DNA of 50,561 bases from an uncultured Oscillibacter sp. (GTDB lineage Bacteria; Bacillota; Clostridia; Oscillospirales; Oscillospiraceae): positions 1-50,561 of the forward strand of contig CAMMCS010000001.1 of the NCBI GenBank assembly GCA_946494635.1, in the 5' to 3' direction. Numbering within the stretch: position 1 is the first letter of the stretch; every line of letters starts with the position of its first letter. The translations under genes and the position numbers were made by a program. Below, in pieces: positions 16,493-32,459 of the stretch. Under the pieces are notes generated by a model. That model searched no databases and was not told where the DNA came from. It worked only from the letters and a program-made list of their open reading frames with translations.

Positions 16493-16789
16493 GTGGCCCA
16501 CCGGCCAAAGCCTGTGGCATTTTAAGACGTCCGAGGGGAACCGGCAGAGAAACCAGATGCAAGCAGATCGTCTGTCCTTATAGCAGGCGGTCTGCTTGCT
16601 TGTATCTATGCCGATCTGTGCCGCTGGGGATGGAGAACCCTGGCACATGCGCGGTGTTTTACAGCAGACGGTACTGGATTTTGCAAGGGGATAGGAGACA
16701 GGCGAAATGAACCAATGTTCACCGAGCAAACTGGAAAAGTTTGAATGCGGTTTTTCCACGGGAGGAGGCAAGCAGAAGTTCATTTACGA

Positions 16790-17225
16790 ATTCTTGCTTT
16801 CTATATCTATGTTCCCATGAGGCTGGGAATCTGATGTCCTGCCTTGCCTTCCAGGGGGATGACAAGGAAATGGAGACATTGCTGGAGAGAAATCCCCGGC
16901 CCTGGCGCAAGGTCCTCTATGTGAACCCGTCCAGCTATGCGCAAATCGGCGGCTGGACCTTTGACAAGGAGGGCCACCGGATAGAACTCAACTTTAACAC
17001 CTGCTACCCCACAATCAAGGGAGCGCCCGGCAAAATATCCCCTGTCTGCATCGGCCGGTCACGGGAAGACACCTGCGCCCCCACTGCGGCGGGCGGATGG
17101 TGGATATGCTGGTGCTGGACGGCCAGGACGATCGGCTGAAATTCCTGGGGCTGGGCGACATCCTCACCGCCGCCTGCTGTCCTAGCTGTGTGGGATTCCT
17201 AAAAGGCCCCGCCCTCAACCGCTGG
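16790..17225 (+). pseudogene. Frameshifted fragment of a Cys-rich conserved hypothetical protein (immunity-island type)
   Basis: Pieces join across frames: MSCLAFQGDD...RNPRPWRK..PSSYAQIGGWTFD...C-PHCGGRMVDMLVLDG..CCPSC; no intact start or stop. Confidence 0.55.
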
Positions 17226-17244
17226 CGGCACGGAAATCTTCCCC

Positions 17245-18150
17245 TCAGAACTCTTTGACAGCTCGGAGCAGTACATCGAAAAGCAGGTGCGGGATCGGTA
17301 CTTTGCGGTCGGAGAACGGGAGGATTTTTTTACGGTTTTCCCTCCCTGCACCGTGTAGCCGGAACTGCGGCCAGAGGAAGTGGATGACGGCCTGCTGCAT
17401 TTCGCCTGCTATGTGGCAATCTGCTATACTGTGTATGGGCTGAGCTTTGAGTATCTCACCACCGAACATATCCTTGGCCTGGTTTCCCAGCTCCGCCCGA
17501 CATGGTGAAGGAGCTGAAGAACAGTGGCAGCGGTAAACTGCCGCCAAGAATCCAAAAGCGGGAAAAAAGCACCTGACCGCCTCGGCCAACGACCCTTTTA
17601 CCATCCGCATCACCCACCAAGGGGTGCTGCGACGAGGCACTACGCTATCTGGCGGAGGTGCTGGAGCAGCCGGAGTTCCCCCGCAGCTACTCCATCGAGT
17701 TCCGCAGACCGGAAAAACCACCTGCCCAACCCTGGCCTGCCCAGGAAGGGCGTCAATCAGCTCTTTGCCTGCGCGGTGCGGTATCCGCACCTCCATGTCC
17801 GAATGGAGAATTATGCCCGGCTTGCCATGCAGGAGGATGAGATGTACCAAAACCTCTCCGATGAGATCTGCGTTCGGTCCGGCACCTTTGCCGTGTTCGC
17901 CCTGGGGCTGGAGAGGCCGAAGTGGTGGCGGCTGGTGTGCGATTACCTGGATCGCTGTGACGGTGAGCACTCCTCCCTGCAGGAGAAGTTCATCCACGCG
18001 CTTTTCAAGAAATACGGCTTCACCGCACAGTCCCTGTCGGTGCTGGTTCACGGCGTCCAGTCTATGCAGAAACTGAAGCCCGCAAAGGAGTTCCGCACCC
18101 TGACCGCCAATGAGAAGAGCCTGGACGCCCTGCTGGAAAAATCAAGGGGC
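17245..18150 (+). pseudogene. Frameshifted DUF6138-like protein remnant
   Basis: DDGLLHFACYVAIC...TASAND (other frames), then GVNQLFACAVRYP...GTFAVFALGL...DYLDRCDGEHSSLQ; several indels; family recognised from memory only. Confidence 0.55.
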
Positions 18151-18362
18151 ATCACAGATCTTCTATTTCTCCCATGCCGGCGTGAACCACGCCTAGGTAG
18201 CCGGCTGCACAGAGGAGGAATTGGACGCGGCTGTGGGGAACTATGTCCGGGCCCAAAAGCAGTATGATACTTGGACGGATGAGGACGAAGCAGGTTACCA
18301 GATCCATCTTCAGGAGCGGGTGTCTCAGCTTAAGCTATTCCCAGACAAAAGGAGGAGACCAG

Positions 18363-19050
18363 ATGAGCAATCAAGTGTTCCTGCAAAACCTAGATGAGAA
18401 AAACGGCCTACTTCCGGCGGCCCCTTTCTCATTCAGATGCTGTTCAAAGAAAAGGCGTTCATGCTGGACAAAGCGGCCATGACCGCCGCGATGAAAAACA
18501 CATTGGGCCGATGGAGTGCTTCTGCCATGGCAGAAAGACGGCGGGTTTTGCAGCGCTGGAGCATTTTGCGGCTTTCAGAGATGCCAGGGTCCCGGTGCTG
18601 CTCATGGGGATGGGGTGCAACAGCTTCAAGGGCAGAAGCTTTGACGCATTCCTCCTGAGCCAGATATAGGACTGCCGGGAAGATCGGGACCGGATTTTCC
18701 AAGAGTGCCGGTATCAGGTCGTGCCACCGATATGCTGGCGGCGCTCCTAGCATTTGAGCAAGCCGATCTGGACATGGACTTCTTGGAGACGCTGTCGGAA
18801 CTGTACCCAGCCTGGAGATGTTCTATTTCCAGAACTGCGGAAAGCTGGTTCTGGGCGAAGATGTGCGCTCCCACCAGCTCGAGGGGGAGGACCGCTTCAT
18901 CCGTTTCGGCGTCAATGTCCGCTTCTTCAACATTCAGGGTGCGAGGATATGCTCATTGACACAGTGGGTATGGGCACCCTGTTCCTGCCGGATCTCCAGT
19001 ACCATTTCCGCGGCATGGATCCAAACTGGATGGTGAACCATGCCTACAAT
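18363..19050 (+). pseudogene. Frameshifted, truncated DUF4261-like protein remnant
   Basis: RBS aggagg, MSNQVFLQNL; frame changes; in-frame TAG in SQI*DC; GVNVRFFNIQG...DTVGM..LFLPDLQYHF...VNHAYN, then an abrupt end. Confidence 0.65.
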
Positions 19051-19225
19051 CGAAGGCATTCTGGATGTGCGCACTCTGCAGAAACAGAGTGGTGGCATGG
19101 ACAGATTCATAGGAACATGGACTGTGCTACACTATGGAAAGAAAAAGCACGAATGGGGTATATGGACAGCACTAAATTGTGCGGACAATACAAAAGGCCC
19201 CGTGGCAGAAATCTATCAAGTTTGA

Positions 19226-19265
19226 CAGGAGTGGCGCAGCGTGAGCAGCGCCACTCCTGATTTTA
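19226..19265 (+). terminator. Hairpin, putative terminator
   Basis: caggagtggcgc...gcgccactcctg followed by atttt. Confidence 0.5.
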
Positions 19266-19272
19266 GCTGAAT

Positions 19273-19840
19273 GCGCTTTGGCCTGTCAGCCTGAAACGCT
19301 CTGTTTAGCGCAGATTTTCATATTTGTGAATCTGCGAATCCATCTGTCTCCACTTTCTGCAGCGGATGATGCTGGAAAATTCTGCATCATAGCCGGCTGG
19401 TCCAGGTGCCCGACATAGTCATAATAACCGCTACGTAACACTCTGAAGAACGACACATCACGGATACTGGATAATGGTCACGATTCATATAGACAATTTG
19501 GCACTTCATTTGCGACCTTATGTTCTTCATGTCAATCGCAGAAAATCCCACAGCAATTCCACTTCCATCTTTGACCGCTTGTTTTCGTATTTGTATTCCT
19601 GCAGTATCTTTGCGGGTTTTCCCTCGCAATACTTCGGCTTTCCTTTTTTCGTCTTTGCGGCGTTACCTCTTTAAGAGGTTGTGAATGTGAGGATCTCCTT
19701 CCAAGCTTCTAGATGGCTCATTCCACAAGCAATTCTTCCTTCGATTACAGGCAACATCTTTTTTTGAATCTTTGTGTATTTTTTCATAACGAATTCCCCT
19801 TGACGTACTCATTTTTCTACACCAAGAGGGATTCTGGCTA
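19273..19840 (-). mobile_element. Degenerate IS3-family insertion sequence remnant (orfA plus truncated orfB)
   Basis: Minus strand: MKKYTKIQ... (ATG 19787), EYKYENKRSKMEVELLWDFLRLT, YPVSVMCR..RSGYYDYV, RKWRQM.SQIHKYENL-LNRAFQADRP; frameshifts, internal deletion, no DDE core. Confidence 0.75.
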
Positions 19841-19893
19841 TTGCCCGTTTTTACTGGTCTTGTTCATATGCCCCACTCGGGCTTTTTTGCTAC

Positions 19894-19983
19894 TCCCAGT
19901 TCTGGTTTGTGCTACTGTGCAGTTTCTGCCCTTGGCAGCATAAGGCTTTGACGTCGCTGAGAACACGAAATCGAATTGGGACT
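19894..19983 (-). repeat. Copy A of a ~90-nt hairpin-forming element (inverted relative to copy B)
   Basis: Reverse complement aligns without gaps to 20267-20357; closed by tcccaattc/gaactggga. Confidence 0.8.
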
Positions 19984-20170
19984 TTTGCTAGAAGAATTCA
20001 ATATCAAAAGATCAAAAAATATATGAACATGGGTTATGCATAAATCTTACCAAAAAAACACAAAAGTGATTAATATTTAGAATTAATAGGGAATTAAAGA
20101 TGTGAAATCCACAAAGAAACCTTGCCACTATGGATAAATCGACAAAAATTTTCTATTTTATGAATTTAAA

Positions 20171-20198
20171 TTGACAAAAAACACAAAATATGTATAAT
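20171..20198 (+). promoter_or_regulatory. Consensus sigma-A promoter of the catabolic operon
   Basis: TTGACA(20171-20176)-16-TATAAT(20193-20198); overlapping caaaaaacacaaaa motif also found near 20051-20065. Confidence 0.75.
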
Positions 20199-20266
20199 TA
20201 AAGATAACCAAAATGCTCATATATTTAAAACAAAAATAGAAATGAGCAAGTTTGGTGCAAAAAAGA

Positions 20267-20357
20267 AGTCCCAGTTCGGCTTCGTGTTCCCGGTGGCGCC
20301 AAAACCTTGTGCTGTCAAAGACCAGAGCGGCATAGGAACATACAAAAGAATTGGGAC
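20267..20357 (+). repeat. Copy B of the ~90-nt hairpin element, in the 5' leader of livK
   Basis: gtcccagttc...gtgttcc...ggaacat...gaattgggac, ending about 10 nt before the RBS gaggagg. Confidence 0.8.
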
Positions 20358-20382
20358 AAAAAGAATTGAGGAGGAAGACATC

Positions 20383-21627
20383 ATGAAAAGAGCATTTGCA
20401 CTTTTGCTAGTTTTGTCGATGATGTTCAGCTTGTCAGCGTGTAACACATCCGACGCCCCTGAGGAAGAAACCGCAGACACCCCCTCCGGCGAGACAATCA
20501 AAATGGCAGCAATTTACGGATTTACAGGTTCTGGCTCGCAAGTGGCGACTTCCTGCCAAAATGCAATCGACCTCGTTGTGAGCAATATCAATGAGACAGG
20601 AATTGAGAATTTTGGTGGAGCGAAATTGGAAGTTGTATATGGCGATAACCAATCTACTGAAAATGTCGCGAGAACAACTGCCGAACGTGTTTTGGAAGAT
20701 GAGGACATTCTTTTCTGCATTGGCGCGGGATCTAGTGCCTTATTAATTCCGATGCTGCCTGTAACAGAGAGACTACATGTTCCGGTTTTGACAAATAACA
20801 GCGGCGATTCTATTACAGAACAAGGGTATCAGTATGTTTTTCGCTGCAGCGATAAGAGCGGAACGATTGCCGAGTTTAAGACAGATTTTTACCAGTGGCT
20901 TGGGGATGAGAGAGGCTATGATCTGGATAAGATCGGAGTTCTCTATGTAGACTATGACTTTGGAATTTCTGCGGCTGAAAGTGCAGAAGAAAATTACACA
21001 AAAATCGGGACCATTATTGAAAGCGAAAGTTTTCCTGCGGATATTTCAGATATGTCTGCTTTAATCACAAAATTCAAAGCATCTGGCGTTGAGATTATTG
21101 ATTTTACTGGAGAACTCCAAAATGCGAGGCTTTTCTTTGATACGCTGGACGCTATGGACTATCATCCACTCGTAATCGGTGGCGGTGGCGGAATGGCCCA
21201 AAATGAGTTTGCGACAGGCCTGGGTGACTCTTCTATTGGTGTACTTCTCAGCTGCGCATTTACCGTTGATCAGAAGAATATTCTGGAAAATGACAGACTG
21301 AATGGGTTAATCCAGCAGTACCACGATACATATGGGATGTATCCTGATGAAAACGCCATGTTTGCGCTTGAGGAAATGTTGGTGGCATGGGATGCCTTGG
21401 AGAGTGCAGCGGAGCCGACACGGGAAGCAGTTCGGGATGCGATCGCCGCATCTCAAACGGAAGGATTCACCTGGAATCAGCCTGTTACATTTGATGAAAC
21501 GGGAAATAATACCGGAGCGAGCTGGGTGATGGCCCAGTGGAAGAAAAATGAAGAGACAGGGGAGTATTACCTTTCCTGCGTTTATCCGGAGGCAGCTGCT
21601 TCCAGCGAGTTTATTGATCCCGAATAA
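20383..21627 (+). CDS. livK: HAAT (Liv-type) ABC substrate-binding lipoprotein
   Basis: RBS gaggagg, MKRAFALLL...LSAC lipobox; GDNQS, GYQYVFR, DYDFG; symbol is family-level. Confidence 0.9.
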   Translation: MKRAFALLLVLSMMFSLSACNTSDAPEEETADTPSGETIKMAAIYGFTGSGSQVATSCQNAIDLVVSNINETGIENFGGAKLEVVYGDNQSTENVARTTAERVLEDEDILFCIGAGSSALLIPMLPVTERLHVPVLTNNSGDSITEQGYQYVFRCSDKSGTIAEFKTDFYQWLGDERGYDLDKIGVLYVDYDFGISAAESAEENYTKIGTIIESESFPADISDMSALITKFKASGVEIIDFTGELQNARLFFDTLDAMDYHPLVIGGGGGMAQNEFATGLGDSSIGVLLSCAFTVDQKNILENDRLNGLIQQYHDTYGMYPDENAMFALEEMLVAWDALESAAEPTREAVRDAIAASQTEGFTWNQPVTFDETGNNTGASWVMAQWKKNEETGEYYLSCVYPEAAASSEFIDPE

Positions 21628-21669
21628 AAATCTTTTAAAACTTCTAAATAGATAAGCCTTTGGGCTCAA

Positions 21670-21701
21670 AAAACGCGCCGGAGGTAACTCCGGCGCGTTT
21701 T
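21670..21701. terminator. Intercistronic 14-bp hairpin after livK (mRNA stabiliser or attenuator)
   Basis: aaaacgcgccggag-gtaa-ctccggcgcgtttt. Confidence 0.7.
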
Positions 21702-21736
21702 CGCAATCGTACAGAGTGTCTTGGAGAGGAGACGTT

Positions 21737-22609
21737 ATGTGGATCTTCACACAATCAATTATTAACGGGATTTTAGCGGGAGGCGTATATGCACTGATTG
21801 CAGTTGGGATCACTGTAATTTTTGGAGTGATGCGTCTTGTTAACTTTGCAAGCGGCGCTTTTTTTACATTAAGCATGTACCTTGGTTACTTTGTCTATTC
21901 ATTTACTGGCTGGAATTGCTATCAATTAATTCCTGCAGTTGCAATTCTTTCAGCCGCAGTCGCCTATGTAACATTCAAATTTACGATTTCTCCAGTGCTT
22001 GGAAAAAGCAGTGATGCAACGATCTTGGTGACTGTTGGTCTCTCGTTTTTCTTACAGAACCTGGTTATTGTTCTGTTTGGTGGAACTGCTTTAACGCTTC
22101 CATCTGAAATTAGCAATGTTTCCATCCGAATTGGAGAATACACATTGGGATTGCCGCGGACGATTGCTTTTATGGTGGCTATTGTACTTGTTCTTGGGGT
22201 CTCCCTCTTAGTTAATAAGAGCAATTTTGGACGTTCCATGCGAGCAACAGCGGAAAACCCGGAAGTAGCAGAGATGCTTGGCATTAAAAGCCGTCGCGTG
22301 TATACATTGGCATGGATAATTGGAATTGTTATGACGAGTATCGGCGGTTTGCTTCTTACCCCAATTTACTATGTCAACAATACGGTGGGTGCGCCGTTCC
22401 GCACAGTGAGCCTGATGGCAGTTGTTTTGGGCGGACTGGGAGATATTCGCGGAGCGTTTATTTGCGGGTTGCTGTTAGGGATTATTGAGAGCGTATTTTC
22501 CGCTTATTTTTCTGCATACATCGGTTTATTGGGAATTTTTATTGTGTATCTCATCATTTTCCTTTTTAAACCCCAGGGGATTTTTGGAAGAAAGGAGCGT
22601 GTGGGATGA
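21737..22609 (+). CDS. livH: HAAT ABC permease
   Basis: GGVYALIAVGITVIFGVMRLVNFA, GRSMRATAEN, VLGGLG, KPQGIFG. Confidence 0.92.
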   Translation: MWIFTQSIINGILAGGVYALIAVGITVIFGVMRLVNFASGAFFTLSMYLGYFVYSFTGWNCYQLIPAVAILSAAVAYVTFKFTISPVLGKSSDATILVTVGLSFFLQNLVIVLFGGTALTLPSEISNVSIRIGEYTLGLPRTIAFMVAIVLVLGVSLLVNKSNFGRSMRATAENPEVAEMLGIKSRRVYTLAWIIGIVMTSIGGLLLTPIYYVNNTVGAPFRTVSLMAVVLGGLGDIRGAFICGLLLGIIESVFSAYFSAYIGLLGIFIVYLIIFLFKPQGIFGRKERVG

Positions 22610-23646
22610 AGACTGAACAAAAAAAGAAATGGATTCACCAGGTTCTGCCGTTAAGTTGTATAGCAATTGTGATTTTACTTCTTCCGTTTGGGATCCAAAG
22701 CAACTACATCATCACAGTAGCTGTCACATGCTTCCTGTTTTCGTGCTTTGGAGTTTGCTGGAATATGATCAGCGGCTATGGAGGGCAGATATCATGGTGC
22801 CATGCAGTATTTGTCTCCATCGGCGCCTATACCACAATTCTGATGAACAACCTGGCGGGTTGGTCACCTTTTATAGCCATTCCGGTTAGCATGATTCTAT
22901 CCTTTATCATTTCCACTGTGATTGGTAAGATTTCATTTCGATACCGTGGACCATTTTTTTCAATCACAACCATTGCCTTTGCGGAAATTGTCCGGGTTCT
23001 CCTGCTGAACTTCAGAGATTTTACCGGTGGTTCCGCAGGAATCACCCGTCCATACATCGGAGCAAGTTTCTGGAATTTGATGTTCGAAAATGACACTCCT
23101 TTTTATTATATTTCCTTTGTCCTTATGGTTGGAGTTGTCTATATAACATACCGCTTTGAAAAGTCCAAGACAGGGTACTATCTGAAGGCGATTAAAGGCG
23201 ATGAAGACGCCGCAATCTCTCTAGGAATTGATACAAGCCGTATAAAGCTAACGGCGTTTCAGCTCAGCGCTGTTCTGACGGCGGTAATAGGTGTTTTCTA
23301 CGGGGCATTTATCAATTATGTGCAGCCAAATACGATCTGTGGAATGGACTTTTCTGTTCAGATTGGATCGGTAGTCATCGTTGGCGGACTTGGAACGGTC
23401 TGGGGATCGATGATCGGCGCATTTATCCTGATTCCACTTATTGAATTGGCGAATATTCTTCTTGGCGCACAGGGGGGCGCACAGCTGCTTTATGGCCTTG
23501 CCCTTATTTTCGTAGTCATTGCACAACCGCGGGGTGTTATTTATCTCTTCAGCAAAGAGAACCGCGATCGGATTGCGCAGAAACTCGGAAAAGGTGCGAA
23601 GAAAACCTCTGAGAAAATCCGAGAAAAGGGGCGGGAAGATATATGA
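22606..23646 (+). CDS. livM: HAAT ABC permease
   Basis: WNMISGYGGQIS, FSITTIAFAE, AIKGDEDAA, VGGLGT. Confidence 0.92.
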   Translation: MKTEQKKKWIHQVLPLSCIAIVILLLPFGIQSNYIITVAVTCFLFSCFGVCWNMISGYGGQISWCHAVFVSIGAYTTILMNNLAGWSPFIAIPVSMILSFIISTVIGKISFRYRGPFFSITTIAFAEIVRVLLLNFRDFTGGSAGITRPYIGASFWNLMFENDTPFYYISFVLMVGVVYITYRFEKSKTGYYLKAIKGDEDAAISLGIDTSRIKLTAFQLSAVLTAVIGVFYGAFINYVQPNTICGMDFSVQIGSVVIVGGLGTVWGSMIGAFILIPLIELANILLGAQGGAQLLYGLALIFVVIAQPRGVIYLFSKENRDRIAQKLGKGAKKTSEKIREKGREDI

Positions 23647-24365
23647 GTATTTTGCTGGAAGCAAATGACATTTCGATTTCTTTTGGAGGTATTCATGCTG
23701 TCCAGAACCTCAGCTTTCAAGTGAAAAAAGGGGAGGTATTGGGTTTCATCGGACCAAATGGTGCCGGAAAATCTACCTGTATCAACCTGATCACTGGTGT
23801 TTATATGCCTGATACTGGAAGCATTACATTTGACGGTGTGAAATTGACAGAGAAACATACCATCCGGGAGCGTGTTCACATGGGAATGGGAAGGACATTC
23901 CAAACCCCGCGCCCGTTTGGAAACATGACCGTTTATGACAATATTTTTACAGTTGCACTTCAACAAAACAGCTTTGCGGCAGCTCATGAAAAAACAAAAG
24001 AAGTTTTAAAGCTGACTGAGATGGAGCATTGGGCTGATGTCGCAAGTGCAAAGCTACCCATTGAAATGAGAAAATGGCTGGATCTGGCCAGAATTTTGGC
24101 AAACGATCCCAAATTCATTATGATGGATGAGGTCATGGCGGGTCTAAATCCCAATGAGATGGAGAACAGCTTTGCTTTGATTGAGCGTCTGAATCAGGCC
24201 GGCATCACGATTCTGTTTATTGAACATGTGCTGCGGGCCGTTGTGAGAGTATGCTCTCGAGTAATTGTTATCAATGAAGGACGTTTTCTTGCAGAAGGAG
24301 AGCCGAGAGAAGTTTTAGATCGTCCGGAAGTAATAGAGGCGTATATAGGAGGTAAGCGTTCGTGA
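23643..24365 (+). CDS. livG: HAAT ABC ATPase
   Basis: FGG, GPNGAGKS, RTFQ, MMDE, IEH, VIEAYIG. Confidence 0.93.
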   Translation: MSILLEANDISISFGGIHAVQNLSFQVKKGEVLGFIGPNGAGKSTCINLITGVYMPDTGSITFDGVKLTEKHTIRERVHMGMGRTFQTPRPFGNMTVYDNIFTVALQQNSFAAAHEKTKEVLKLTEMEHWADVASAKLPIEMRKWLDLARILANDPKFIMMDEVMAGLNPNEMENSFALIERLNQAGITILFIEHVLRAVVRVCSRVIVINEGRFLAEGEPREVLDRPEVIEAYIGGKRS

Positions 24366-25075
24366 GACTGTTGGAAATATCCGGCGTGAGTGCTGCCTAT
24401 GGAGATCTGAAAGTTCTGCATGATGTTTCGCTGCATGTAGATGAAGGTGAGATTGTTTCTCTGGTGGGATCAAATGGGGCAGGGAAGACGATGCTACTTC
24501 GCATTATATCAGGACTGGTTCCAGTGACGGAAGGACAGATTACCCTAGGGGGAAAAAATCTTTTAAAAGTGAGACCATATGAACGCGTATCTGTAGGACT
24601 TTCCCATATCCCGCAAGGAAGAGGGACTTTAGCAAAGCTTACGGTTAAGGAAAATTTGATTCTCGGTGCATATAGCCTGAAATCTTCTCAACAACGTGAG
24701 GAAAATATTGAACGCGCTTACGGAATGTTCCCAAAGCTCAGAGAGAGGAAAAATCAAATTGCCGGTTCATTGTCCGGCGGAGAGCAGCAGATGCTTGCCA
24801 TTGCAAGAGCCCTCATGTGTGATCCCAAAATTATTGCTATGGATGAGCCCTCTCTTGGACTTGCGCCGATTGTTGTAGAGAATGTCTTTGAGATTATTCA
24901 ACGAGTTTCAAGTGAGAGAAAGATTGCAATTCTGATTGTAGAGCAAAATCTTGTTCAATCCCTGTCCATCGCACATCGGGGCTATGTACTGGAAAATGGC
25001 CGCATTGTCCGGGAGGGAGAAGCAAAGGCCCTCTTGGAGGATAAGGATATTCGGTCTGCATATCTTGGAATTTGA
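24362..25075 (+). CDS. livF: HAAT ABC ATPase
   Basis: GSNGAGK, LSGGEQQMLAIARAL, DEPSLGLAP, VEQN, AYLG. Confidence 0.95.
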   Translation: MRLLEISGVSAAYGDLKVLHDVSLHVDEGEIVSLVGSNGAGKTMLLRIISGLVPVTEGQITLGGKNLLKVRPYERVSVGLSHIPQGRGTLAKLTVKENLILGAYSLKSSQQREENIERAYGMFPKLRERKNQIAGSLSGGEQQMLAIARALMCDPKIIAMDEPSLGLAPIVVENVFEIIQRVSSERKIAILIVEQNLVQSLSIAHRGYVLENGRIVREGEAKALLEDKDIRSAYLGI

Positions 25076-25091
25076 GATAAGGAACTTGATT

Positions 25092-25991
25092 ATGAAGAAT
25101 AAACTGGCGCTTCACATGTGCTACTGGTCTGGAACAGAAATTGGAAACAGTTTGGAACAGATCATCTCCTATACTGCTGAGACCGGTGTGGATTCGCTCG
25201 AACTGGGGCCGGACATGTTCTTAAATCTCGACAGGCAAAGGCGCAAAGACCTGTTACACCGAATTGAAGACCACGGCCTCAGCGTTTCGGTGAACGGTGG
25301 CCTGATGAATGAACGCAACGACACGTCCAGTCCGGATCCCGCAATTCGCAGGGCGGGCATTGAGCACTGCCGACGAGTTTTAGAGGCGTGCGCTGACATG
25401 AGGTCTCCTTATTGGTCGGGACTGATGCACAGCGCATGGTGCCTAAAACCGGATATGGAGAATCCACAGGAATGTAAAAGACGAACATGGGATCGTAGTG
25501 TAGAGGCAATGAAAACGGTAACTAAAATTGCGGCGGACTATGGAGTAGTATGCGCTATTGAAATTGTGAATCGTTATGAGCATTTTTTGCTCAATACAGC
25601 GAAGGATGGTATTGATTTTTGCGGGGAAGTGGGAAGCCCGTACTGCAAACTGTGCCTGGATGTCTTCCACATGTCCATTGAAGAAAATGATATGCCATCT
25701 GCAGTTATGGAAACGCAAAATCGGGGCTATTTGGCATGCATCCACCTGGGAGAAACAAACCGCCGGATTCCAACAGGTGGCCCGACAAATATCAACTGGA
25801 GTCGCTTTGGAAATGCGGTTCGGGATGGCAAGTATTCAGGAACAATGGTGTTTGAGCCGCTGCAGTTTTCCGGAGCATCTACTGCAGCCAAAACCTGTCT
25901 GTGGCGAGATGTTGCGGATCCAAATGATTTGAATGGACTTGTTGTGAATGGACAGAAGGCAGTCTCATTTATGCGCGGCCTTTTGGAATAG
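25092..25991 (+). CDS. D-psicose/D-tagatose/L-ribulose 3-epimerase family protein
   Basis: Metal/catalytic motifs EIVNRYE, LDVFHMSIEE, HLGETNRR, VFEP; ATG 25092. Confidence 0.85.
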   Translation: MKNKLALHMCYWSGTEIGNSLEQIISYTAETGVDSLELGPDMFLNLDRQRRKDLLHRIEDHGLSVSVNGGLMNERNDTSSPDPAIRRAGIEHCRRVLEACADMRSPYWSGLMHSAWCLKPDMENPQECKRRTWDRSVEAMKTVTKIAADYGVVCAIEIVNRYEHFLLNTAKDGIDFCGEVGSPYCKLCLDVFHMSIEENDMPSAVMETQNRGYLACIHLGETNRRIPTGGPTNINWSRFGNAVRDGKYSGTMVFEPLQFSGASTAAKTCLWRDVADPNDLNGLVVNGQKAVSFMRGLLE

Positions 25992-26004
25992 GAAGTTGTG
26001 GAAC

Positions 26005-27480
26005 ATGAGCTATGTAATAGGAATTGACGTAGGAACAACAAACATCAAAGCGCTTGTGATTGATCAGAGTGGTCAGACGGTTGCTTTTGCAAAGAGAAAC
26101 TCACCCTTTCAAGATTTCAATGGCCATGACGCCTATGAGTACCACTCTTTCTGGGAAAATATCTGTCAGCTTCTAAGAGAAACCATAGCCAACATGCAAA
26201 AACAGGGAGCCTCGCCTAAAGATCTGCGCGGAATTGCTGTTGCAAGTATGGGAGAGATGGGATTTCCAGTCGGAAGCAAAGATGCGGTTTTTCCTGCAAT
26301 TTCCTGGTATGATTTGTGCAGCACAAAATATTGGGAAGAGTTATGCGACAAGATTTCCCAAGAGAGGCAGGTTGATATCACAGGGCAAAAGATTATTCAC
26401 ATCTTTTCAATAGCGAAACTGATGTGGCTGAAAGCGGAATATCCACATATATATGATGAAATGGCTACTTGGCTCTGCATTGCAGACTATGTATCGTTTA
26501 AGTTATGCGGAAGCCGCTGTATGGAGAGATCATTGGCAGCGCGGACAGGATTGCTGGATTATAAAACTGGTACCTGGTCAGAAGAAATTTTACAAATAGC
26601 CGGAATTGATGAAGAAAAAATGCCCAGGCTGGTACATGGCGGAGCATACTTAGGAGCAATCACAGATCAAGCAGCAGATGACACGGGGTTACCTCCAGGA
26701 ACACCTGTTTTTGCCGGTGGACATGATCATATCTGCGCATCCTTTGCTACAGGGGTATGGGAGCCTGGAACTATTATGGATTCCAGCGGAACAACTGAGG
26801 TTGTTGTACGGACAGAGGCTCAAAGGGAAAACACACTGACAGCAGGACAAAAGGGCTTCAACATTGGACCGCATGTGCGCCTTGATCACTATTATATTAT
26901 GGGGGGAATCTCTGCAGCAGGCGTCTCTGTGGACTGGTATCGAAAAGAATTTTACGGGGGTTCCCCGCAGCATACTGAAATTGGAAGTCTGATCTATTTG
27001 CCCCACCTGCGCGGAAGCAGTAGCCCTACCAGAGACCCGAGGTCAAAAGGTGCATTTCTGGGAATCACAGACCGGCATGGAAACTCGGATTTTCTGCAGG
27101 CGATCTATGAAGGGGTCGCGTTTGAACTGAAACAAACCATTGATGGCATGGGCAAGTATCCAAAAAAGATCATTGGAGTTGGAGGTGGATACCAAAATGA
27201 TCGATGGACACAGATTAAGGCCGATGTGATGCAGACTGAAATTGAACTTCCTTCTATTAAAGAGGCTACGGCGTTAGGAGCAGCTTTGCTCGCAGGAGTT
27301 GGAAGCGGAATGTTTCCGACTCCTGAGGATGCGTTCCACAACACCTTCCGCATTGAAAAAAGATTTGTACCAAATTTCAAGTATCAGAAATACTATGAGG
27401 AAAAGTACCGGATCTTTCAATCGCTATACAGCACATTGATAGACGTAAATAATGGACTGAGTACATTAAACGCATATTGA
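26005..27480 (+). CDS. FGGY-family carbohydrate kinase (fuculokinase-like subgroup)
   Basis: IGIDVGTT, ASMGE, WYD, GGHDH, SSGT, YLPHLRG, EATALGAALLAG. Confidence 0.9.
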   Translation: MSYVIGIDVGTTNIKALVIDQSGQTVAFAKRNSPFQDFNGHDAYEYHSFWENICQLLRETIANMQKQGASPKDLRGIAVASMGEMGFPVGSKDAVFPAISWYDLCSTKYWEELCDKISQERQVDITGQKIIHIFSIAKLMWLKAEYPHIYDEMATWLCIADYVSFKLCGSRCMERSLAARTGLLDYKTGTWSEEILQIAGIDEEKMPRLVHGGAYLGAITDQAADDTGLPPGTPVFAGGHDHICASFATGVWEPGTIMDSSGTTEVVVRTEAQRENTLTAGQKGFNIGPHVRLDHYYIMGGISAAGVSVDWYRKEFYGGSPQHTEIGSLIYLPHLRGSSSPTRDPRSKGAFLGITDRHGNSDFLQAIYEGVAFELKQTIDGMGKYPKKIIGVGGGYQNDRWTQIKADVMQTEIELPSIKEATALGAALLAGVGSGMFPTPEDAFHNTFRIEKRFVPNFKYQKYYEEKYRIFQSLYSTLIDVNNGLSTLNAY

Positions 27481-27499
27481 GGTAGGGGGCTGTGTTTTT

Positions 27500-28345
27500 A
27501 TGTATGTGTCGCCCAAGGAAATACTGCAGGATGCCATCGATAGGCATTACGCTGTTGCGGCTTTCAACTTTTACAATTTAGATACTCTTTTGGCAATTAT
27601 TGAAGCGGCAGAGGAGGAGCGTTCTCCGGTAATTGCTCAAATTTATGCAGATCATTTCACATTCTATAATGGAGGAGGTTCCATTGCAAAGGCAGCCCTT
27701 CGGCTGATTGAAGAGACGCCAGTCCCGGTCTATTTGCATCTGGATCATGCAAGCAACTACGAAACGATTCTATACGCTATTGAGCTTGGGTTCCATTCTG
27801 TTATGTATGATGGTTCGGAACTGCCATTAGACGAAAACATCAGCATTTCCAAAACTGTGGTGGAGGCAGCCCATAAGCATGGAATTTTCACCGAAGTCGA
27901 GCTTGGTCGGATTGGCCGGCTGTCCGGCGGACAGGAAGACGCTGTCTATGATGATTGCACTGGCGTAGAAGAAGCATGCCAACTGATTTCAAACTGCAAA
28001 GCAGATTCCCTTGCACCGGCGATTGGAACAGCGCATGGATTATATAGGACAGTTCCAAAGCTTAACTTCAGGAGACTGGAGGAGCTGCAGAAAGCGTTGG
28101 AAGTTCCGCTGGTGCTGCATGGAGGCTCAGGAATTCCAGATGAGTTGATTCGTAAGTCGATTGATTTGGGAATCGCGAAAATCAATGTTGGCACAGAACT
28201 CAAATACCAGTGGAGTTCCACGATGAAAGCAGGCCTGGAACAAGGACTGAAAGAGCCAATTAAATTGGAAAATAATGCAAAACAGGCAGTCAAAGAAATT
28301 GCAAAAAGAAAAATCTCTTTATTTGGATCAGCCGGAAAAGCTTAA
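27500..28345 (+). CDS. Class II ketose-(bis)phosphate aldolase
   Basis: AFN, HLDH, SVMYDGS, EVELG, GTAHG, LHGGSG, KINVGT. Confidence 0.95.
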   Translation: MYVSPKEILQDAIDRHYAVAAFNFYNLDTLLAIIEAAEEERSPVIAQIYADHFTFYNGGGSIAKAALRLIEETPVPVYLHLDHASNYETILYAIELGFHSVMYDGSELPLDENISISKTVVEAAHKHGIFTEVELGRIGRLSGGQEDAVYDDCTGVEEACQLISNCKADSLAPAIGTAHGLYRTVPKLNFRRLEELQKALEVPLVLHGGSGIPDELIRKSIDLGIAKINVGTELKYQWSSTMKAGLEQGLKEPIKLENNAKQAVKEIAKRKISLFGSAGKA

Positions 28346-28351
28346 GGAGGA

Positions 28352-29398
28352 ATGAAAATGCGTGCAATGGTTGTTACAAAGCCTTATACATTGGAAGAAC
28401 GGCAAGTACCCATTCCTGAGATCCATAAAGACGAGGCATTAATAAAAATTGCATATACAGGAATATGCGGGTCAGATGTTCACATTTACAAAGGTGAGAC
28501 ACCTACAGCAAAGCCGGATGTCATCACAGGTCACGAATACAGCGGCGTGATTGAAGAGATTGCACCTGGATCTGTAAATCCAGCTGGGCTGAAAAAAGGA
28601 GACAAGGTGGTCGGTTGGATCGTCGAAGCGTGCGGAACGTGTGATGCCTGTTTAGGCGGGCATACGAATCTTTGCAGGAACCTCAAATGCTACGGAACGC
28701 AAGTGGATGGCACATTTAGAGAGTATATTTCTGCTCCGCTTACAATGCTGTATAAGATTCCGGATTCGGCAGATCTGCGATTATATGCATTGGTAGAGCC
28801 TATGGCAGTTGCGGTCTATGCAGTTCGGGAAGCGCCTGTACAGTTGGGCGATACTGTGTTGATCATTGGGGGCGGCGCGATTGGAATGTGTGCGGCTCTT
28901 GCGGCCAAGATGGCAGGCGGAACTAAAATCACAATTTCTGAAATTGCTTCAGAAAAAATTGAAAGAATTAAAAAGATGGGCTTTCATGTTGTAAATCCAA
29001 AAGAGAAAGATGCAGTAAAAAGCTGCATGGATTTGACGGATGGTCATGGCTTCAATTGCATTTTTGAGGCATCTGGTGCTCCCAGTGGATATGATCTTTT
29101 AACGAAGGTAGGCTCTTATAGAGCAAAGGCTGTCAATATTGGCATGAATTTTAGACCTTCCCCCCTGGTGACGCGAGAGATTATGGTTACGGAAACTGGT
29201 ATCAAAGCAATTCGAATCCATCAGCAATCTGTTTTTGGGCTTACGGAAAGATTGTTTGAGTCTTTGAGTGAAAAGGAACAAAGAGATCTCTACAGTCTTA
29301 TATCCGACGACTATGATTTTGACCATTTGAAAGAGGCGTTTGATTTTTGTGTCAATGACCAGTCATATTGTAAGGTAATGGTAAAAGTAGGACTCTGA
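28352..29398 (+). CDS. Zn-dependent MDR dehydrogenase (polyol/aldonate type, probably NAD-linked)
   Basis: GICGSD, GHE, structural C-x2-C-x2-C-x7-C, EP, GGGAIG followed by acidic SE. Confidence 0.92.
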   Translation: MKMRAMVVTKPYTLEERQVPIPEIHKDEALIKIAYTGICGSDVHIYKGETPTAKPDVITGHEYSGVIEEIAPGSVNPAGLKKGDKVVGWIVEACGTCDACLGGHTNLCRNLKCYGTQVDGTFREYISAPLTMLYKIPDSADLRLYALVEPMAVAVYAVREAPVQLGDTVLIIGGGAIGMCAALAAKMAGGTKITISEIASEKIERIKKMGFHVVNPKEKDAVKSCMDLTDGHGFNCIFEASGAPSGYDLLTKVGSYRAKAVNIGMNFRPSPLVTREIMVTETGIKAIRIHQQSVFGLTERLFESLSEKEQRDLYSLISDDYDFDHLKEAFDFCVNDQSYCKVMVKVGL

Positions 29399-29457
29399 AA
29401 AAGGGACGCAATCAGCAGTGCGGATACCGCAAAAACAGTAGATTGCGTCCCTTTTTT
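29398..29457. terminator. Bidirectional terminator
   Basis: aaaaagggacgcaatc ... gattgcgtcccttttt, 16-bp arms. Confidence 0.7.
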
Positions 29458-29573
29458 ACACGATATGTAAAGGGCATATTCTTTTTTGGCGTTTATCAAT
29501 ATGATGTGGCAAAAAGAAGGATGCAGCTTATTTTGTTTAGAAGGAAAGAGAAGTTTATGAGTAACTTTGCAAG

Positions 29574-30362
29574 TTATTGTCCCTCATACAGCTCAGGAAA
29601 AATGCACTTTACATTTTGAGCGGCAAAGCTTTTTAGAATTTCGGGGGCAGGCCTTTCATTTGTGACAATGGCGCTTAAAGAGCTAATTGGGCAGAAACTG
29701 AAGGTCGCCATTTTAGAAAATTTGCTGCCGTCGATCATTGCAACGATGGACTTTCCGACATTTTGATTGATAACTGTGCTTTTAATCTCGGCCTCTAGAT
29801 AATTATTATTAGCCAAGCCACCACGAAAAGAGATGCTGGATGCCGAAATAAAAACAGTGTCAATCTGCATACCGGAAAGCCCTTTTGAAGTGGACAACCC
29901 AACAAAGGAAACTGTATCTGGATTGTAGATACCTCCTAAGGCAACTAGGCGGATGGAGGGGTATTTTGATGCTTCATACATAGCGGATAGAGAATGTGTA
30001 ACGACTGTGACATTCTCTTTTTCCGCTAAAAAAGGGATTATTTTTTCCGTGGTACTTCCAGAATCCAGAAAAATGGAACTGTTATTCCGAACCAGCCCAG
30101 CGGCAAGCCGCCCAATGATTTGCTTTGCCTGACTGTTTTCTGAAGTACGAACAGACATGGGAGGAACGGAATCAAATTCTGACTTTGGGGCTGCACAAAC
30201 ACCTCCGTATACCTTTTTAATGTTGCCGCGGTCTACAAGAATATTAAGATCTCTGCGGATAGTATTCGTGGAAACATGGAAGATTTCCACAAGTTTATCC
30301 AACGACACTGAACGATTCTTTAGAATGTACTGCTCTATTGCGTTTAAACGCTCGATTTTCAT
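29574..30362 (-). CDS. DeoR/GlpR family transcriptional regulator
   Basis: VSTNTIRRDL...KVYGG, IFLDSGSTT, DGSKF. Confidence 0.95.
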   Translation of the reverse strand: MKIERLNAIEQYILKNRSVSLDKLVEIFHVSTNTIRRDLNILVDRGNIKKVYGGVCAAPKSEFDSVPPMSVRTSENSQAKQIIGRLAAGLVRNNSSIFLDSGSTTEKIIPFLAEKENVTVVTHSLSAMYEASKYPSIRLVALGGIYNPDTVSFVGLSTSKGLSGMQIDTVFISASSISFRGGLANNNYLEAEIKSTVINQNVGKSIVAMIDGSKFSKMATFSFCPISSLSAIVTNERPAPEILKSFAAQNVKCIFPELYEGQ

Positions 30363-30494
30363 TCTTGAAATAAGAATCACCTCTTTTGTTAAATTTTGTA
30401 TAGATTATAACATATATTTGGAAAAAGGAAAAGAAAATTTTTCATAAAGAGATAAAAATGATCAATTTATTTTGCGTGAAATGAGGAGATTTCG

Positions 30495-31673
30495 ATGAAA
30501 CCTTTGGAGGGAATCCGAATTATTGATCTAGGAAGATTTGTTTCAGCGCCATTTTGTGGAATGTTGTTAGGGGATCTCGGAGCGGAAGTGATTAAAGTGG
30601 AAAAGCCTGTGTCCGGAGAGGACTCAAGAGGTGTTGGGCCATTTTTGAATGGGGCGTCTCTATACGTTCCGACTTTTAACCGCAACAAAAAGGGCGTTAC
30701 TATCCAAACCCGAAAGCAAGAGGGTATTCAGCTATTGAAGGAACTCATTCAAACGGCAGATGTGCTTCTTGAGAATTATCGTCCGGGGACACTTGAAAAG
30801 ATGGGTTTGGGCTATAAAACCATACAGAAGATTAATCCGCGGATGATTGTAGCGTCTATTTCCGGGTTCGGACAAACAGGGCCGGATGCGTTGCGGTCGG
30901 CTTTTGATCCCATTGCGCAGGCAGTGGGCGGACTGTATGCGATAACGGGAACAGAACAGTCTGGTCCCCTTGGAGCCGGAACGGTCATTGCAGATCTGAC
31001 GACTGGACTATATACAGCCTATGCGATTTTGGCTGCTGTCATTCAGCGTGGGAGGACAGGCAAGGGCCAATACATCGATATTGCGATGACCGACTGCATG
31101 GTTTCCCTACTGCATATCTATGTCCCTGATTATGCGGCCAATGGGACAGTTCCCAAACGTCATGGAAACAGGGATCCGCTTTCCGCTCCAGCGGACTGCT
31201 ATCAGACGGCTGATGGTTACATTGTCATGCATGCAGGTGAAGATAAGGCCTATGCGAGTCTGAAGCAATTGATTGCGGACGCGAGACTTGCTGATCCAAA
31301 ATTTGACTCGCATCAGGGGCGCGTTCTATATCAGGAAGAGTTGGAGAAGTATCTTCGGGATTGGTTTAAAGATAAGACAACGGATGAGGCGGAGCGCACG
31401 TTGCTTAATAACGGAATTATGGCAGCGCGTGTTTATGACATGCCTCATATCTTCACATCTGAACAGATTAAGCAGAGGGGGATGCTGGTTGAAATGGATG
31501 TCCCCAATGCCGGCACTTGTATTTTCCAAGGGAACCCGATTCATATGTCGGATCTGCAAATTTCCTATAAAAGAGCACCCATGGTAGGCGAGCACAATCA
31601 GGAAATCTTTGGAACTTTACTGAAAAAAGAGGATGGAATACTGAGGAGTATGCAGGAAGAGGGCATCATCTAA
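30495..31673 (+). CDS. CaiB/BaiF family III CoA-transferase
   Basis: PLEGIRIID, LGDLGAEVIKVE, NRNKK, ENYRPG, SGFGQTGP, catalytic Asp in IADLTTG. Confidence 0.95.
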   Translation: MKPLEGIRIIDLGRFVSAPFCGMLLGDLGAEVIKVEKPVSGEDSRGVGPFLNGASLYVPTFNRNKKGVTIQTRKQEGIQLLKELIQTADVLLENYRPGTLEKMGLGYKTIQKINPRMIVASISGFGQTGPDALRSAFDPIAQAVGGLYAITGTEQSGPLGAGTVIADLTTGLYTAYAILAAVIQRGRTGKGQYIDIAMTDCMVSLLHIYVPDYAANGTVPKRHGNRDPLSAPADCYQTADGYIVMHAGEDKAYASLKQLIADARLADPKFDSHQGRVLYQEELEKYLRDWFKDKTTDEAERTLLNNGIMAARVYDMPHIFTSEQIKQRGMLVEMDVPNAGTCIFQGNPIHMSDLQISYKRAPMVGEHNQEIFGTLLKKEDGILRSMQEEGII

Positions 31674-31693
31674 AAACACAGAAGGAGATTGAA

Positions 31694-32458
31694 ATGGAAT
31701 TTGTTAAATTAGATATTCAAAATCATATTGGGGTTGTGACTTTTTCCAGACCACCTATCAATGCAGTTAATCTGCAGTGCAACTTGGAAATAGCAGAGGT
31801 CTTTGAACAGATCAACCATTGCGATGAAATCTGGTGCGTGGTGCTGCGGGCATTGGGAAAGGGATTTATTTCCGGCAGTGATGTGGATGATTTTGCTGCT
31901 TATGATGAAGAACTGCTGAAAGCCAACGAGGATGCGGATGTGAGAAGCATCATGGCCATTTACCACTGTCGCGTCCCTGTGATTTGCCAAGTGCAGGGGT
32001 ATGTATTGGGCCATGGCACGACATTTGCAGCCGCAAGCGACATGATTGTGGCAGCTGATGATACATATTTTGGAATCCCAGAAGTTACTCTTTGTGTAGT
32101 GGGGGGAACGGATGCAATCCGCCAGCTTGTGCCGGAGAAATTCCTGCGTTATATGGCATACACCGGGAAAAAGATCAGCGTACAGAAAATTGCGGAATAT
32201 GGAAATATTTTGAGAGTTGTTCCCCGGGCCCTTGCATTTGAGACGGCGATGGAGGTTGCGGCGGAGATTACCAGCCAATATCCAAAGGCGGTACAATGTG
32301 TAAAGGCGGCGGTTCAAGATCTCACAAACCACGACAAAGAGCGGGACTTCTATGTTGACTGCACCTATACACATGAGCTGCTGAAGGACCCTGAGAGAGA
32401 AAAAGCCTTGGAAACTTATTATGCAAAACTGAGGGAGAAAAAAGCTGGGAGAATATGA
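31694..32458 (+). CDS. Enoyl-CoA hydratase/isomerase (crotonase) family protein, paralogue 1
   Basis: RPPINA, FISGSD, GYVLGHG, FGIPE. Confidence 0.9.
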   Translation: MEFVKLDIQNHIGVVTFSRPPINAVNLQCNLEIAEVFEQINHCDEIWCVVLRALGKGFISGSDVDDFAAYDEELLKANEDADVRSIMAIYHCRVPVICQVQGYVLGHGTTFAAASDMIVAADDTYFGIPEVTLCVVGGTDAIRQLVPEKFLRYMAYTGKKISVQKIAEYGNILRVVPRALAFETAMEVAAEITSQYPKAVQCVKAAVQDLTNHDKERDFYVDCTYTHELLKDPEREKALETYYAKLREKKAGRI

Positions 32459-32459
32459 G

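What the first reader, a model, noticed from the sequence alone, without database searches (positions are those of the whole stretch)
19894..20357. Two diverged, inverted copies of a ~90-nt hairpin element flanking an AT-rich promoter region: candidate new cis-regulatory RNA
Seen: the reverse complement of 19894-19983 aligns without gaps to 20267-20357 (hand count about 64/90 identical, differences mostly transitions). Both copies keep the same nested pairings: tcccaRttc/gaaYtggga, gtgtt/aRcaY, cRg/cKg and an apical cctt-Rtgctg-Ycaa arm. Copy B lies between a consensus TTGACA/TATAAT promoter and the livK RBS. Copy A points the other way, into an IS3 remnant that has probably replaced the original gene. 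Inference: a conserved leader structure (riboswitch-like, protein-bound antiterminator or processing site) or a small mobile palindromic element. It matches no RNA family I recognise.
Basis: partly seen in the sequence, partly recalled or inferred. Interest (0 to 1): 0.7.

Follow-up and report, generated by a model that had tools for sequence, protein, structure and literature searches.

The report
Two jumping mini-elements, unusual parent transposon
The two hairpins are separate insertions of a small mobile DNA element (a MITE) rather than a regulatory RNA, and the transposon that likely moves them is unusual because it is predicted to join a restriction-type nuclease to its transposase by reading through a stop codon.

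Summary
The two 90-bp copies are real (63/90 identical) but are not a cis-regulatory RNA. Each has terminal inverted repeats and its own exact 8-bp target-site duplication (AAAAAGAA; TTTTGCTA). Contigs from four runs in four studies carry the livK leader without copy B (98 = 90 + 8 bases skipped), and identical copies of B sit at other loci. Seventeen copies show no covariation. The same ends and 8-bp duplications bound 90-bp to 4.7-kb elements in relatives; the longest encode an IS1595-family transposase whose left end matches B at 24/26. So both copies are MITEs, likely moved in trans by that clade. That much is ordinary. The parent is not: an Mrr-like PD-(D/E)xK nuclease gene precedes the transposase. 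In 47 of 96 loci it is in frame across a TGA-AG stop. None of 23 linkers has an in-frame stop, 16 carry a small hairpin, one clade has a CTT-TAG +1 site instead, and two clades are outright fusions. This predicts a recoded nuclease-transposase fusion, untested and not found in my literature searches.

The parts
20268..20357 (+). MITE copy B, 90 bp; about 24-bp bipartite terminal inverted repeats (CCCAATTC-N6-GTGTTC type) around a 42-bp core; lies in the predicted livK 5' leader
   Evidence: empty site and identical copies elsewhere
20260..20267 (+). Left target-site duplication of copy B (AAAAAGAA)
   Evidence: joint 'skips 98, both 8'
20358..20365 (+). Right target-site duplication of copy B (AAAAAGAA)
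19893..19982 (-). MITE copy A, 90 bp, a second subtype (63/90 identical to B), inserted independently
   Evidence: other flanks at its ends in other runs
19885..19892 (+). Target-site duplication left of copy A (TTTTGCTA on +)
19983..19990 (+). Target-site duplication right of copy A (TTTTGCTA on +)
20171..20198 (+). Sigma-70-type promoter match TTGACA-16-TATAAT (12/12), likely the promoter of the transporter operon; host DNA, not part of the element
   Evidence: consensus match only
20368..20374 (+). Shine-Dalgarno-like GAGGAGG of the livK-like gene, outside the element
   Evidence: sequence
20383..21627 (+). livK-like periplasmic-binding-protein gene, first of a low-GC ABC transporter and sugar-catabolism cluster
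19163..19866 (-). Internally deleted IS3-family remnant, 704 bp, TG...CA ends; neighbour, not part of the MITE family
   Evidence: full-length relative in G150 (L212) hits NF033516
19142..19162 (+). Left arm of a terminator-like hairpin split by the IS3 remnant
   Evidence: inverted repeat I2; fold
19867..19887 (+). Right arm and T-run of that hairpin; copy A's target follows directly

Best explanation
[quoted passage not shown] Shown: the ends, the duplications, an empty site for copy B, identical copies of B elsewhere, and long elements with the same ends that encode the transposase. Inferred: the transposase binds the two bipartite terminal repeats, excises or copies the element (a circular intermediate is reported for the IS1595 element MTnSag1, PMC5704250), and joins it to AT-rich DNA through cuts staggered by 8 bp. 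The hairpin is a by-product of the terminal repeats; the 'inverted pair around a promoter' is two hits on one AT-rich intergenic stretch. Copy B would be transcribed in the livK leader and may change its expression, as an accident of insertion.
For: Exact 8/8 flanking repeats at both copies (about 3e-5 each by local composition). Of 9 copies examined in G000, 4 have 8/8, one 7/8, and one has 8/8 as part of a 337-bp form; their positions relative to genes vary. Empty site for B (skip of 98 bases, 8 ambiguous) in 4 of 6 DNA runs laid, from 4 studies; B with 0 differences on other contigs in X6, X8, X11. End motif in 44 of 165 genus genomes, reversed control 1 match. 16 of 19 assessable end pairs fetched from relatives have 7/8 or 8/8 duplications, lengths 89-3926 bp; 27 of 59 loosely called pairs at offset 0 against 0-3 at shifted offsets, duplications 88% AT. 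The 3926-bp element L071 encodes an IS1595 transposase (NF033547 87.8 bits, cut-off 75; PF12762); its left end matches B at 24/26. A de novo search for inverted ends plus 8-bp duplication around transposase loci returns the same ends. IS1595 elements are described with about 25-bp ends, 8-bp direct repeats and AT-rich targets (PMC5704250, PMC12561309, passages).
Against: No such transposase was found in G000, which is only 67% complete, so the mobiliser of these two copies is not identified. No empty site for copy A in 6 DNA runs. Three of the 9 G000 copies (C9, C11, C67) have no duplication. The 42-bp core does not match the sequence inside the ends of L071, so the MITE is not a simple deletion of that element. 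The link to IS1595 rests on shared ends, not on a transposition assay.
Confidence: 0.95

Rival explanations
1. A conserved cis-regulatory RNA (riboswitch-like leader, antiterminator or processing site) of the transporter operon.
For: B lies between a 12/12 promoter match and the RBS and folds well (z -3.47). No Rfam family explains it.
Against: Absent from the same leader in other strains. On 17 copies all five covariation measures are at or below the shuffles (391-499 of 500 shuffles reach them); RNAalifold keeps 13 pairs, all in the terminal repeats, none compensatory. Copies lie upstream, downstream and antisense of genes. The same ends bound kilobase elements.
Confidence: 0.02
2. A MITE by origin, but copy B now tunes livK operon expression (leader hairpin stabilising the mRNA, or an RNase III site). 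Compatible with the best explanation.
For: B would add a -33.8 kcal/mol hairpin to the leader. MITE hairpins are RNase III sites in Neisseria (PMC10969869, passages).
Against: B is polymorphic and identical to copies elsewhere, so it is recent. Predicted SD accessibility is similar with and without it. No expression data: the two RNA runs cover neither B nor the promoter.
Confidence: 0.25
3. The pair A+B is one unit: an invertible promoter switch or a composite mini-transposon carrying the promoter.
For: Inverted repeats flank a strong promoter 281 bp apart. A 337-bp form in G000 C112 does carry a 90-bp unit plus an extra right end inside one duplication.
Against: A and B have different duplications, each on both of its own sides; B is missing where A is present; no joint showing an inversion in 6 DNA runs; only 70% identity.
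Confidence: 0.02
4. A MITE, but moved by a different 8-bp-duplicating transposase (IS256/Mutator, IS6, ISL3, IS1).
For: The IS1595 clade is not seen in G000; these families also make 8-9-bp duplications (recalled).
Against: The only transposase found between these ends is IS1595-type; 24/26 end identity to B.
Confidence: 0.03

Closest known systems
Prokaryotic MITEs (Correia, RUP, MITEAba12 and others; PMC10969869, PMC11602168, passages)
   Same: Short, non-coding, terminal inverted repeats, target-site duplication, AT-rich intergenic targets, hairpin-forming transcript.
   Different: Sequence and ends not matched to a named MITE in my searches; the catalogue in the supplement of PMC11602168 could not be read and may hold it.
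IS1595-family transporter ISs MTnSag1 (tISSag10) and tISCpe8 (PMC5704250, passages)
   Same: IS1595 DDE transposase, about 25-bp ends, 8-bp duplications, AT-rich targets, passenger genes, Bacillota hosts.
   Different: Here the passengers are an ECF sigma factor and a downstream gene (L071), and an Mrr-like nuclease gene is fixed upstream of the transposase. End sequences were not compared with those elements (the tISCpe8 paper is not held). The IS1595 subgroup was not assigned.
IS1 and IS3 recoded transposases (PMC5009743, passages)
   Same: An upstream ORF is joined to the catalytic ORF by recoding.
   Different: Those use frameshifting to join a DNA-binding ORF. Here the predicted event is in-frame UGA readthrough (or +1 shift in one clade), the upstream ORF is a nuclease, and the downstream ORF is already a whole transposase with its own RBS.
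Tn7 TnsA-TnsB heteromeric transposase (abstract of PMC8188705 in a search listing; TnsA fold recalled)
   Same: A restriction-endonuclease-fold protein paired, sometimes fused, with a DDE transposase.
   Different: Different transposase family, no TnsC/TnsD, 8-bp duplication; TnsA was not among the listed fold matches; no cleavage role is shown.
Release factor 2 (prfB) +1 frameshift site CUU-UGA-C (PMC5009743, passages)
   Same: One clade has CTT-TAG-C where a +1 shift would enter the transposase frame.
   Different: Stop is UAG and no upstream internal Shine-Dalgarno is visible.

Membership tests
MITE | Short (50-800 bp) and without a transposase gene | tested here: met
   90 bp; no own ORF; size range from PMC11602168
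MITE | Terminal inverted repeats of 10 bp or more | tested here: met
   about 24-bp bipartite repeats
MITE | Target-site duplication | tested here: met
   8/8 at both copies; shifted controls 0-3 of 59
MITE | Dispersed copies and empty sites | tested here: met
   9 copies in G000; empty site for B in 4 of 6 DNA runs; none seen for A
MITE | Autonomous element with the same ends | tested here: met
   L071, L088, L093-L095, L125, L128, L130, L131, L134, L204
MITE | Mobilisation in trans shown by experiment | not testable with these tools
   needs a transposition assay
IS1595 family (parent element) | Transposase matches the family model | tested here: met
   NF033547 87.8 bits over cut-off 75; PF12762 37 over 27; N-terminal zinc domain NF050000
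IS1595 family (parent element) | Catalytic residues conserved | tested here: met
   D161, E162, D278 invariant and N313 nearly invariant in 30 sequences; their catalytic role is read from likeness to the motif quoted in PMC12561309
IS1595 family (parent element) | 8-bp AT-rich direct repeats and terminal inverted repeats | tested here: met
   family values from PMC5704250 and PMC12561309
IS1595 family (parent element) | Membership of a named subgroup (ISPna2, ISNwi1 and others) | not tested
   ISfinder is not available; the defining paper (PMID 19286454) was seen only as a reference
Cis-regulatory structured RNA | Covariation-supported structure | tested here: not met
Cis-regulatory structured RNA | Fixed position upstream of related genes | tested here: not met
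   absent from the same leader in other strains
Known Rfam family | Match at gathering score | tested here: not met
PD-(D/E)xK (Mrr-like) nuclease, upstream ORF of the parent | Fold and catalytic motif | tested here: met
   PF04471; D48, Q65, K67 invariant in 60 sequences; model pLDDT 80.6, AF1548 Z 12.7 (rmsd 2.4, 110 aligned), FokI Z 10.1 (rmsd 3.7, 139 aligned)
Tn7 TnsA | Structural match to TnsA | tested here: inconclusive
   not among the listed rows; absence from the list does not exclude it
Selenocysteine recoding (SECIS) | Host has selA and selB | tested here: not met
   0 of 5 host genomes over cut-off for either gene; genomes 88-97% complete
Programmed stop-codon readthrough | Conserved stop, open in-frame linker and 3' stimulator | tested here: met
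   47 of 47 in-frame stops are TGA-AG; 0 of 23 linkers with an in-frame stop; hairpin in 16 of 23
Programmed stop-codon readthrough | Fusion protein detected | not testable with these tools
   needs a reporter, western blot or mass spectrometry

The most novel reading that the evidence does not exclude
These MITEs are the non-autonomous wing of an undescribed IS1595 clade with a two-nuclease transposase. A restriction-fold (Mrr-like) nuclease is joined to the DDE transposase by hairpin-stimulated UGA readthrough, by a +1 frameshift in one clade, or by outright fusion in two others, and acts in transposition itself (for example as a TnsA-like second-strand cutter or target selector). The recoding rate would set the activity of a family of MITEs and gene cassettes that moves genes among gut Clostridia.
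Probability: 0.4. Interest if true: 0.78.

Novelty: new variant of a known kind. Interest (0 to 1): 0.5.

Why it matters
The flagged hairpins themselves are ordinary MITEs, and the result removes a false riboswitch candidate. The family is active: copy B is present or absent between strains, and the same ends carry cassettes with regulators and sigma factors among gut Clostridia. What lifts the interest is the parent. Recoding in insertion sequences is described as frameshifting (IS1, IS3, IS5, IS630 in PMC5009743). A conserved, hairpin-flanked UGA readthrough that can be swapped for a +1 shift or a fusion would be a different route, and a restriction-fold nuclease as a fixed partner of an IS1595 transposase would be a new transposase architecture. 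Both are cheap to test with a reporter and a transposition assay. I put recoding at about 0.65 and a role of the nuclease in transposition, given recoding, at about 0.6.

Tried and rejected
Rfam: nothing significant at E up to 10 in 19-21 kb; only tRNAs at gathering score in the window and 7 other G000 stretches. Plasmid and phage collections: only 22-24-bp chance matches to copy B. Viral contigs: no relative of the transposase. livK relatives for an empty-site comparison: 0 of 300 family genomes at E 1e-30, so read data were used instead. RNA runs X16 and X17: contigs cover part of livK and part of copy A only, and say nothing on start site or level. Summed contig depth over copy A is several times the flank in X8 and X15, but that is no copy number and I did not use it. 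Complex prediction of nuclease with transposase gave no verdict (score 0.00); it is not evidence either way. Search for longer forms of the nuclease returned only P0095 from 7995 scored candidates, a weak search that missed the other fusions seen. De novo end search found no ends for the 12 nuclease-less sister loci and L182, nor for several 41-43% clades within 4 kb, so the shared ends are shown only for part of the clade. PADLOC: only domain-level likeness to the Mrr-like part of ZorD and type IV restriction enzymes; a defence cargo role is not excluded. Selenocysteine rejected. att/res-site and REP readings dropped once the duplications were found. Earlier scan findings: nothing returned. 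Literature: no paper held with IS1595 + Mrr + transposase + restriction endonuclease; searches listed nothing on an IS1595 nuclease partner or readthrough (titles and abstract starts only). The tree is the quick tree, not the finished careful one.

Full report
Observation. The repeat is real. The arms at 19894-19984 and 20266-20356 are the longest inverted repeat in 18-22 kb, 71% complementary, and align without gaps. With exact ends, copy A is 19893-19982 (minus) and copy B is 20268-20357 (plus); they are 63/90 identical with 20 transitions and 7 transversions. B lies between a 12/12 sigma-70 match (20171-20198) and a livK-like gene at the left edge of a low-GC block, about 19-33 kb. There is no Rfam match. 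B folds well (z -3.47); A in the same orientation does not (z -1.05).

Each copy is flanked by its own exact 8-bp direct repeat: AAAAAGAA for B, TTTTGCTA for A. An iterated profile search finds 9 full-length copies in G000, with no hit in the reversed-genome control. Four of the 9 have 8/8 duplications, one has 7/8, one (C112) has 8/8 around a 337-bp form, and three have none. Copies lie upstream of genes, antisense to gene starts, after terminator-like hairpins and near tRNA genes. Conservation is confined to two symmetric blocks, CCCAATTC-N6-GTGTTC at each end, at a nearly fixed spacing.

It moves. In 4 of 6 DNA runs laid (X6, X11, X8, X15; four studies, listed as chicken gut, gut or unlabelled) one contig crosses the livK leader and skips 98 bases with 8 ambiguous, which is the element plus one duplication. 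X2 has the filled site; X10 is uninformative. In X6, X8 and X11, copy B occurs with 0 differences on contigs with other flanks. In X8 it sits at the target that G000 contig C66 fills with a different subtype: the 30 left-flank letters match by eye, which suggests a preferred site. For copy A no empty site was seen, but contigs leave its ends into several other flanks.

It is not a conserved RNA. On 17 copies, with B's fold as the structure, all five measures are at or below the shuffle control (391-499 of 500 shuffles reach the observed value). RNAalifold keeps 13 pairs, all within the terminal repeats, none compensatory. The inner pairings are kept in a minority of copies.

The family and its parent. 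The end motif occurs in 44 of 165 genomes of the genus, against 1 match for the reversed control. Of 20 end pairs fetched, 19 could be assessed and 16 have 7/8 or 8/8 duplications. They span about 90 bp, 384-388 bp, 600-810 bp (cassettes with an HTH or SMI1/KNR4 gene), 1.8-1.9 kb (ECF sigma factor plus a downstream gene) and 3.9 kb. The 3926-bp element L071 encodes an IS1595-family transposase. The same protein occurs at 100% identity in records titled Oscillibacter, Flintibacter and Lachnospiraceae, within the same ends and with different 8-bp duplications. Its left end matches B at 24/26. A search for any inverted ends with an exact 8-bp duplication around transposase loci returns these ends for clades at 60-100% identity and a variant for one clade at 42%, but none for several other distant clades. 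About 25-bp ends, 8-bp repeats and AT-rich targets are what is reported for IS1595 elements (PMC5704250 and PMC12561309, passages). G000 shows no such transposase, but it is 67% complete.

Mechanism. Shown: ends, duplications, empty site, dispersed identical copies, autonomous relatives. Inferred: the IS1595 enzyme binds both ends in trans and inserts the element into AT-rich DNA with an 8-bp stagger. A and B are separate hits on one AT-rich intergenic stretch. B would lie about 60 nt into the livK leader if the promoter match is used. Predicted SD accessibility changes little with or without it, so any effect on expression is open.

The IS3 neighbour. Positions 19163-19866 are a 704-bp remnant with TG...CA ends; both ends match a 1.27-kb element in G150 whose ORFs hit the IS3 model. 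It splits a terminator-like hairpin (-22 kcal/mol when the flanks are folded together). Copy A follows that hairpin's T-run. Nothing suggests that A once led a gene.

The unusual part, outside the window. In L071 an Mrr_cat-domain gene precedes the transposase. Of 96 transposase loci examined (many near-identical), 47 have it in frame across a stop, 2 are fused, 6 (one clade) are out of frame at CTT-TAG-C, 1 is otherwise out of frame, 20 lack it (mostly one sister clade; a few are broken or interrupted) and 20 have too little upstream sequence (a looser count gave 49 in frame, 9 out, 38 without). All 47 stops are TGA followed by AG, whereas long ORFs in these loci end in TGA in 44 of 93 cases. 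Stop-to-start spacers are 36, 45, 51, 54, 57 or 60 nt. Of 24 distinct stop contexts I used 23 (L127 dropped as a near-copy of L088): none has an in-frame stop in the linker, against 22 and 16 in the other two frames and 15.1 expected from shuffles; for 11 lineage representatives, 0, 11 and 7. Part of the frame-1 excess comes from the TTAGGAGG ribosome site. A 4-7-bp hairpin starts 7-8 nt after the UGA in 16 of 23, against 2.2 in shuffles, with A-T/G-C and C-G/T-A swaps at some positions; seven linkers lack it, kin are not independent, and the stem boundaries were fitted per sequence. In the CTT-TAG clade the 37-nt spacer means a +1 shift would enter the transposase frame, as at the CUU-U shift site of release factor 2 (PMC5009743, passages), though no upstream SD is visible. 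Six fused proteins of 612-628 residues appear among the best 120 of 222 homologues and fall in two separate clades of the quick tree, one of them sister to the CTT-TAG clade. The nuclease keeps D48, Q65 and K67 invariant in 60 sequences and models as a restriction-endonuclease fold plus a 50-residue helix. Five host genomes lack selA and selB, so selenocysteine is unlikely. The simplest reading is programmed recoding that yields a nuclease-transposase fusion beside the free transposase. Rivals are a passenger defence nuclease, or an old split fusion whose linker stayed open for another reason; the second is hard to square with frame-keeping indels between lineages only 34-43% identical. Nothing here shows that the fusion is made or that the nuclease acts in transposition.

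Novelty and verdict. The flagged feature is a new member of a known kind, a MITE, and the regulatory-RNA idea is refuted. The parent is an IS1595-family member with a feature I did not find described (searches; ISfinder, the IS1595 defining paper and the supplement of PMC11602168 were not available), so I rate the system a new variant of a known kind. Papers were seen as passages (PMC5704250, PMC12561309, PMC11602168, PMC10969869, PMC5009743, PMC2853133) or as search listings only. Interest 0.5: about 0.25 for the MITEs alone, lifted by a testable recoding and two-nuclease hypothesis for their likely mobiliser.

Noticed in passing
L071:902-2839 and relatives L088-L102, L124-L206: Mrr-like nuclease gene held in frame with an IS1595 transposase across a conserved TGA-AG stop with a small 3' hairpin; +1 CTT-TAG variant and fused variants exist. 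Candidate programmed readthrough.
   Followed up: yes
L034:3246-3352 (G000 C66) and run X8: The same 8-bp target upstream of a transporter-like ORF holds a different MITE subtype in G000 and in run X8, which points to an insertion hot spot or to conversion between copies.
   Followed up: partly
L031:1760-2096 (G000 C112): A 337-bp form made of a 90-bp unit, about 220 bp of other DNA and a second right end, all inside one 8-bp duplication; a possible snapshot of how the family captures cargo.
   Followed up: partly
L068, L069, L070, L073-L080, L087: Transposase-less cassettes with the same ends carry an ECF sigma factor with a downstream gene, an HTH regulator, an SMI1/KNR4 protein or unknown ORFs.
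   Followed up: partly
window 19142-19887: A 704-bp IS3-family remnant sits in the loop of a terminator-like hairpin, leaving 27-bp inverted arms outside its ends.
   Followed up: yes
window 19200-33200: Low-GC block (about 45% against about 60% around it) with a branched-chain-type ABC transporter, TIM-barrel isomerase, FGGY kinase, class II aldolase, dehydrogenase, DeoR regulator, CoA-transferase and two enoyl-CoA hydratases; the binding protein had no close relative in 300 family genomes.
   Followed up: no
window 16700-19260: DUF6138 and DUF4261 genes look broken by frameshifts; other runs show small indels at several of these places.
   Followed up: no
window 20242-21627: With copy B present, an upstream ATG at 20242 reads through the element in frame with livK (461 aa); it has no obvious RBS and would stop early in the empty allele.
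   Followed up: no
L174: About 1.5 kb of other, transposase-like DNA separates the nuclease gene from the transposase in a member of a fused clade.
   Followed up: no
run X17, window 19826-19984: One contig has copy A with the window's left flank but another right flank; either an assembly join across copies or a rearrangement at the element.
   Followed up: no
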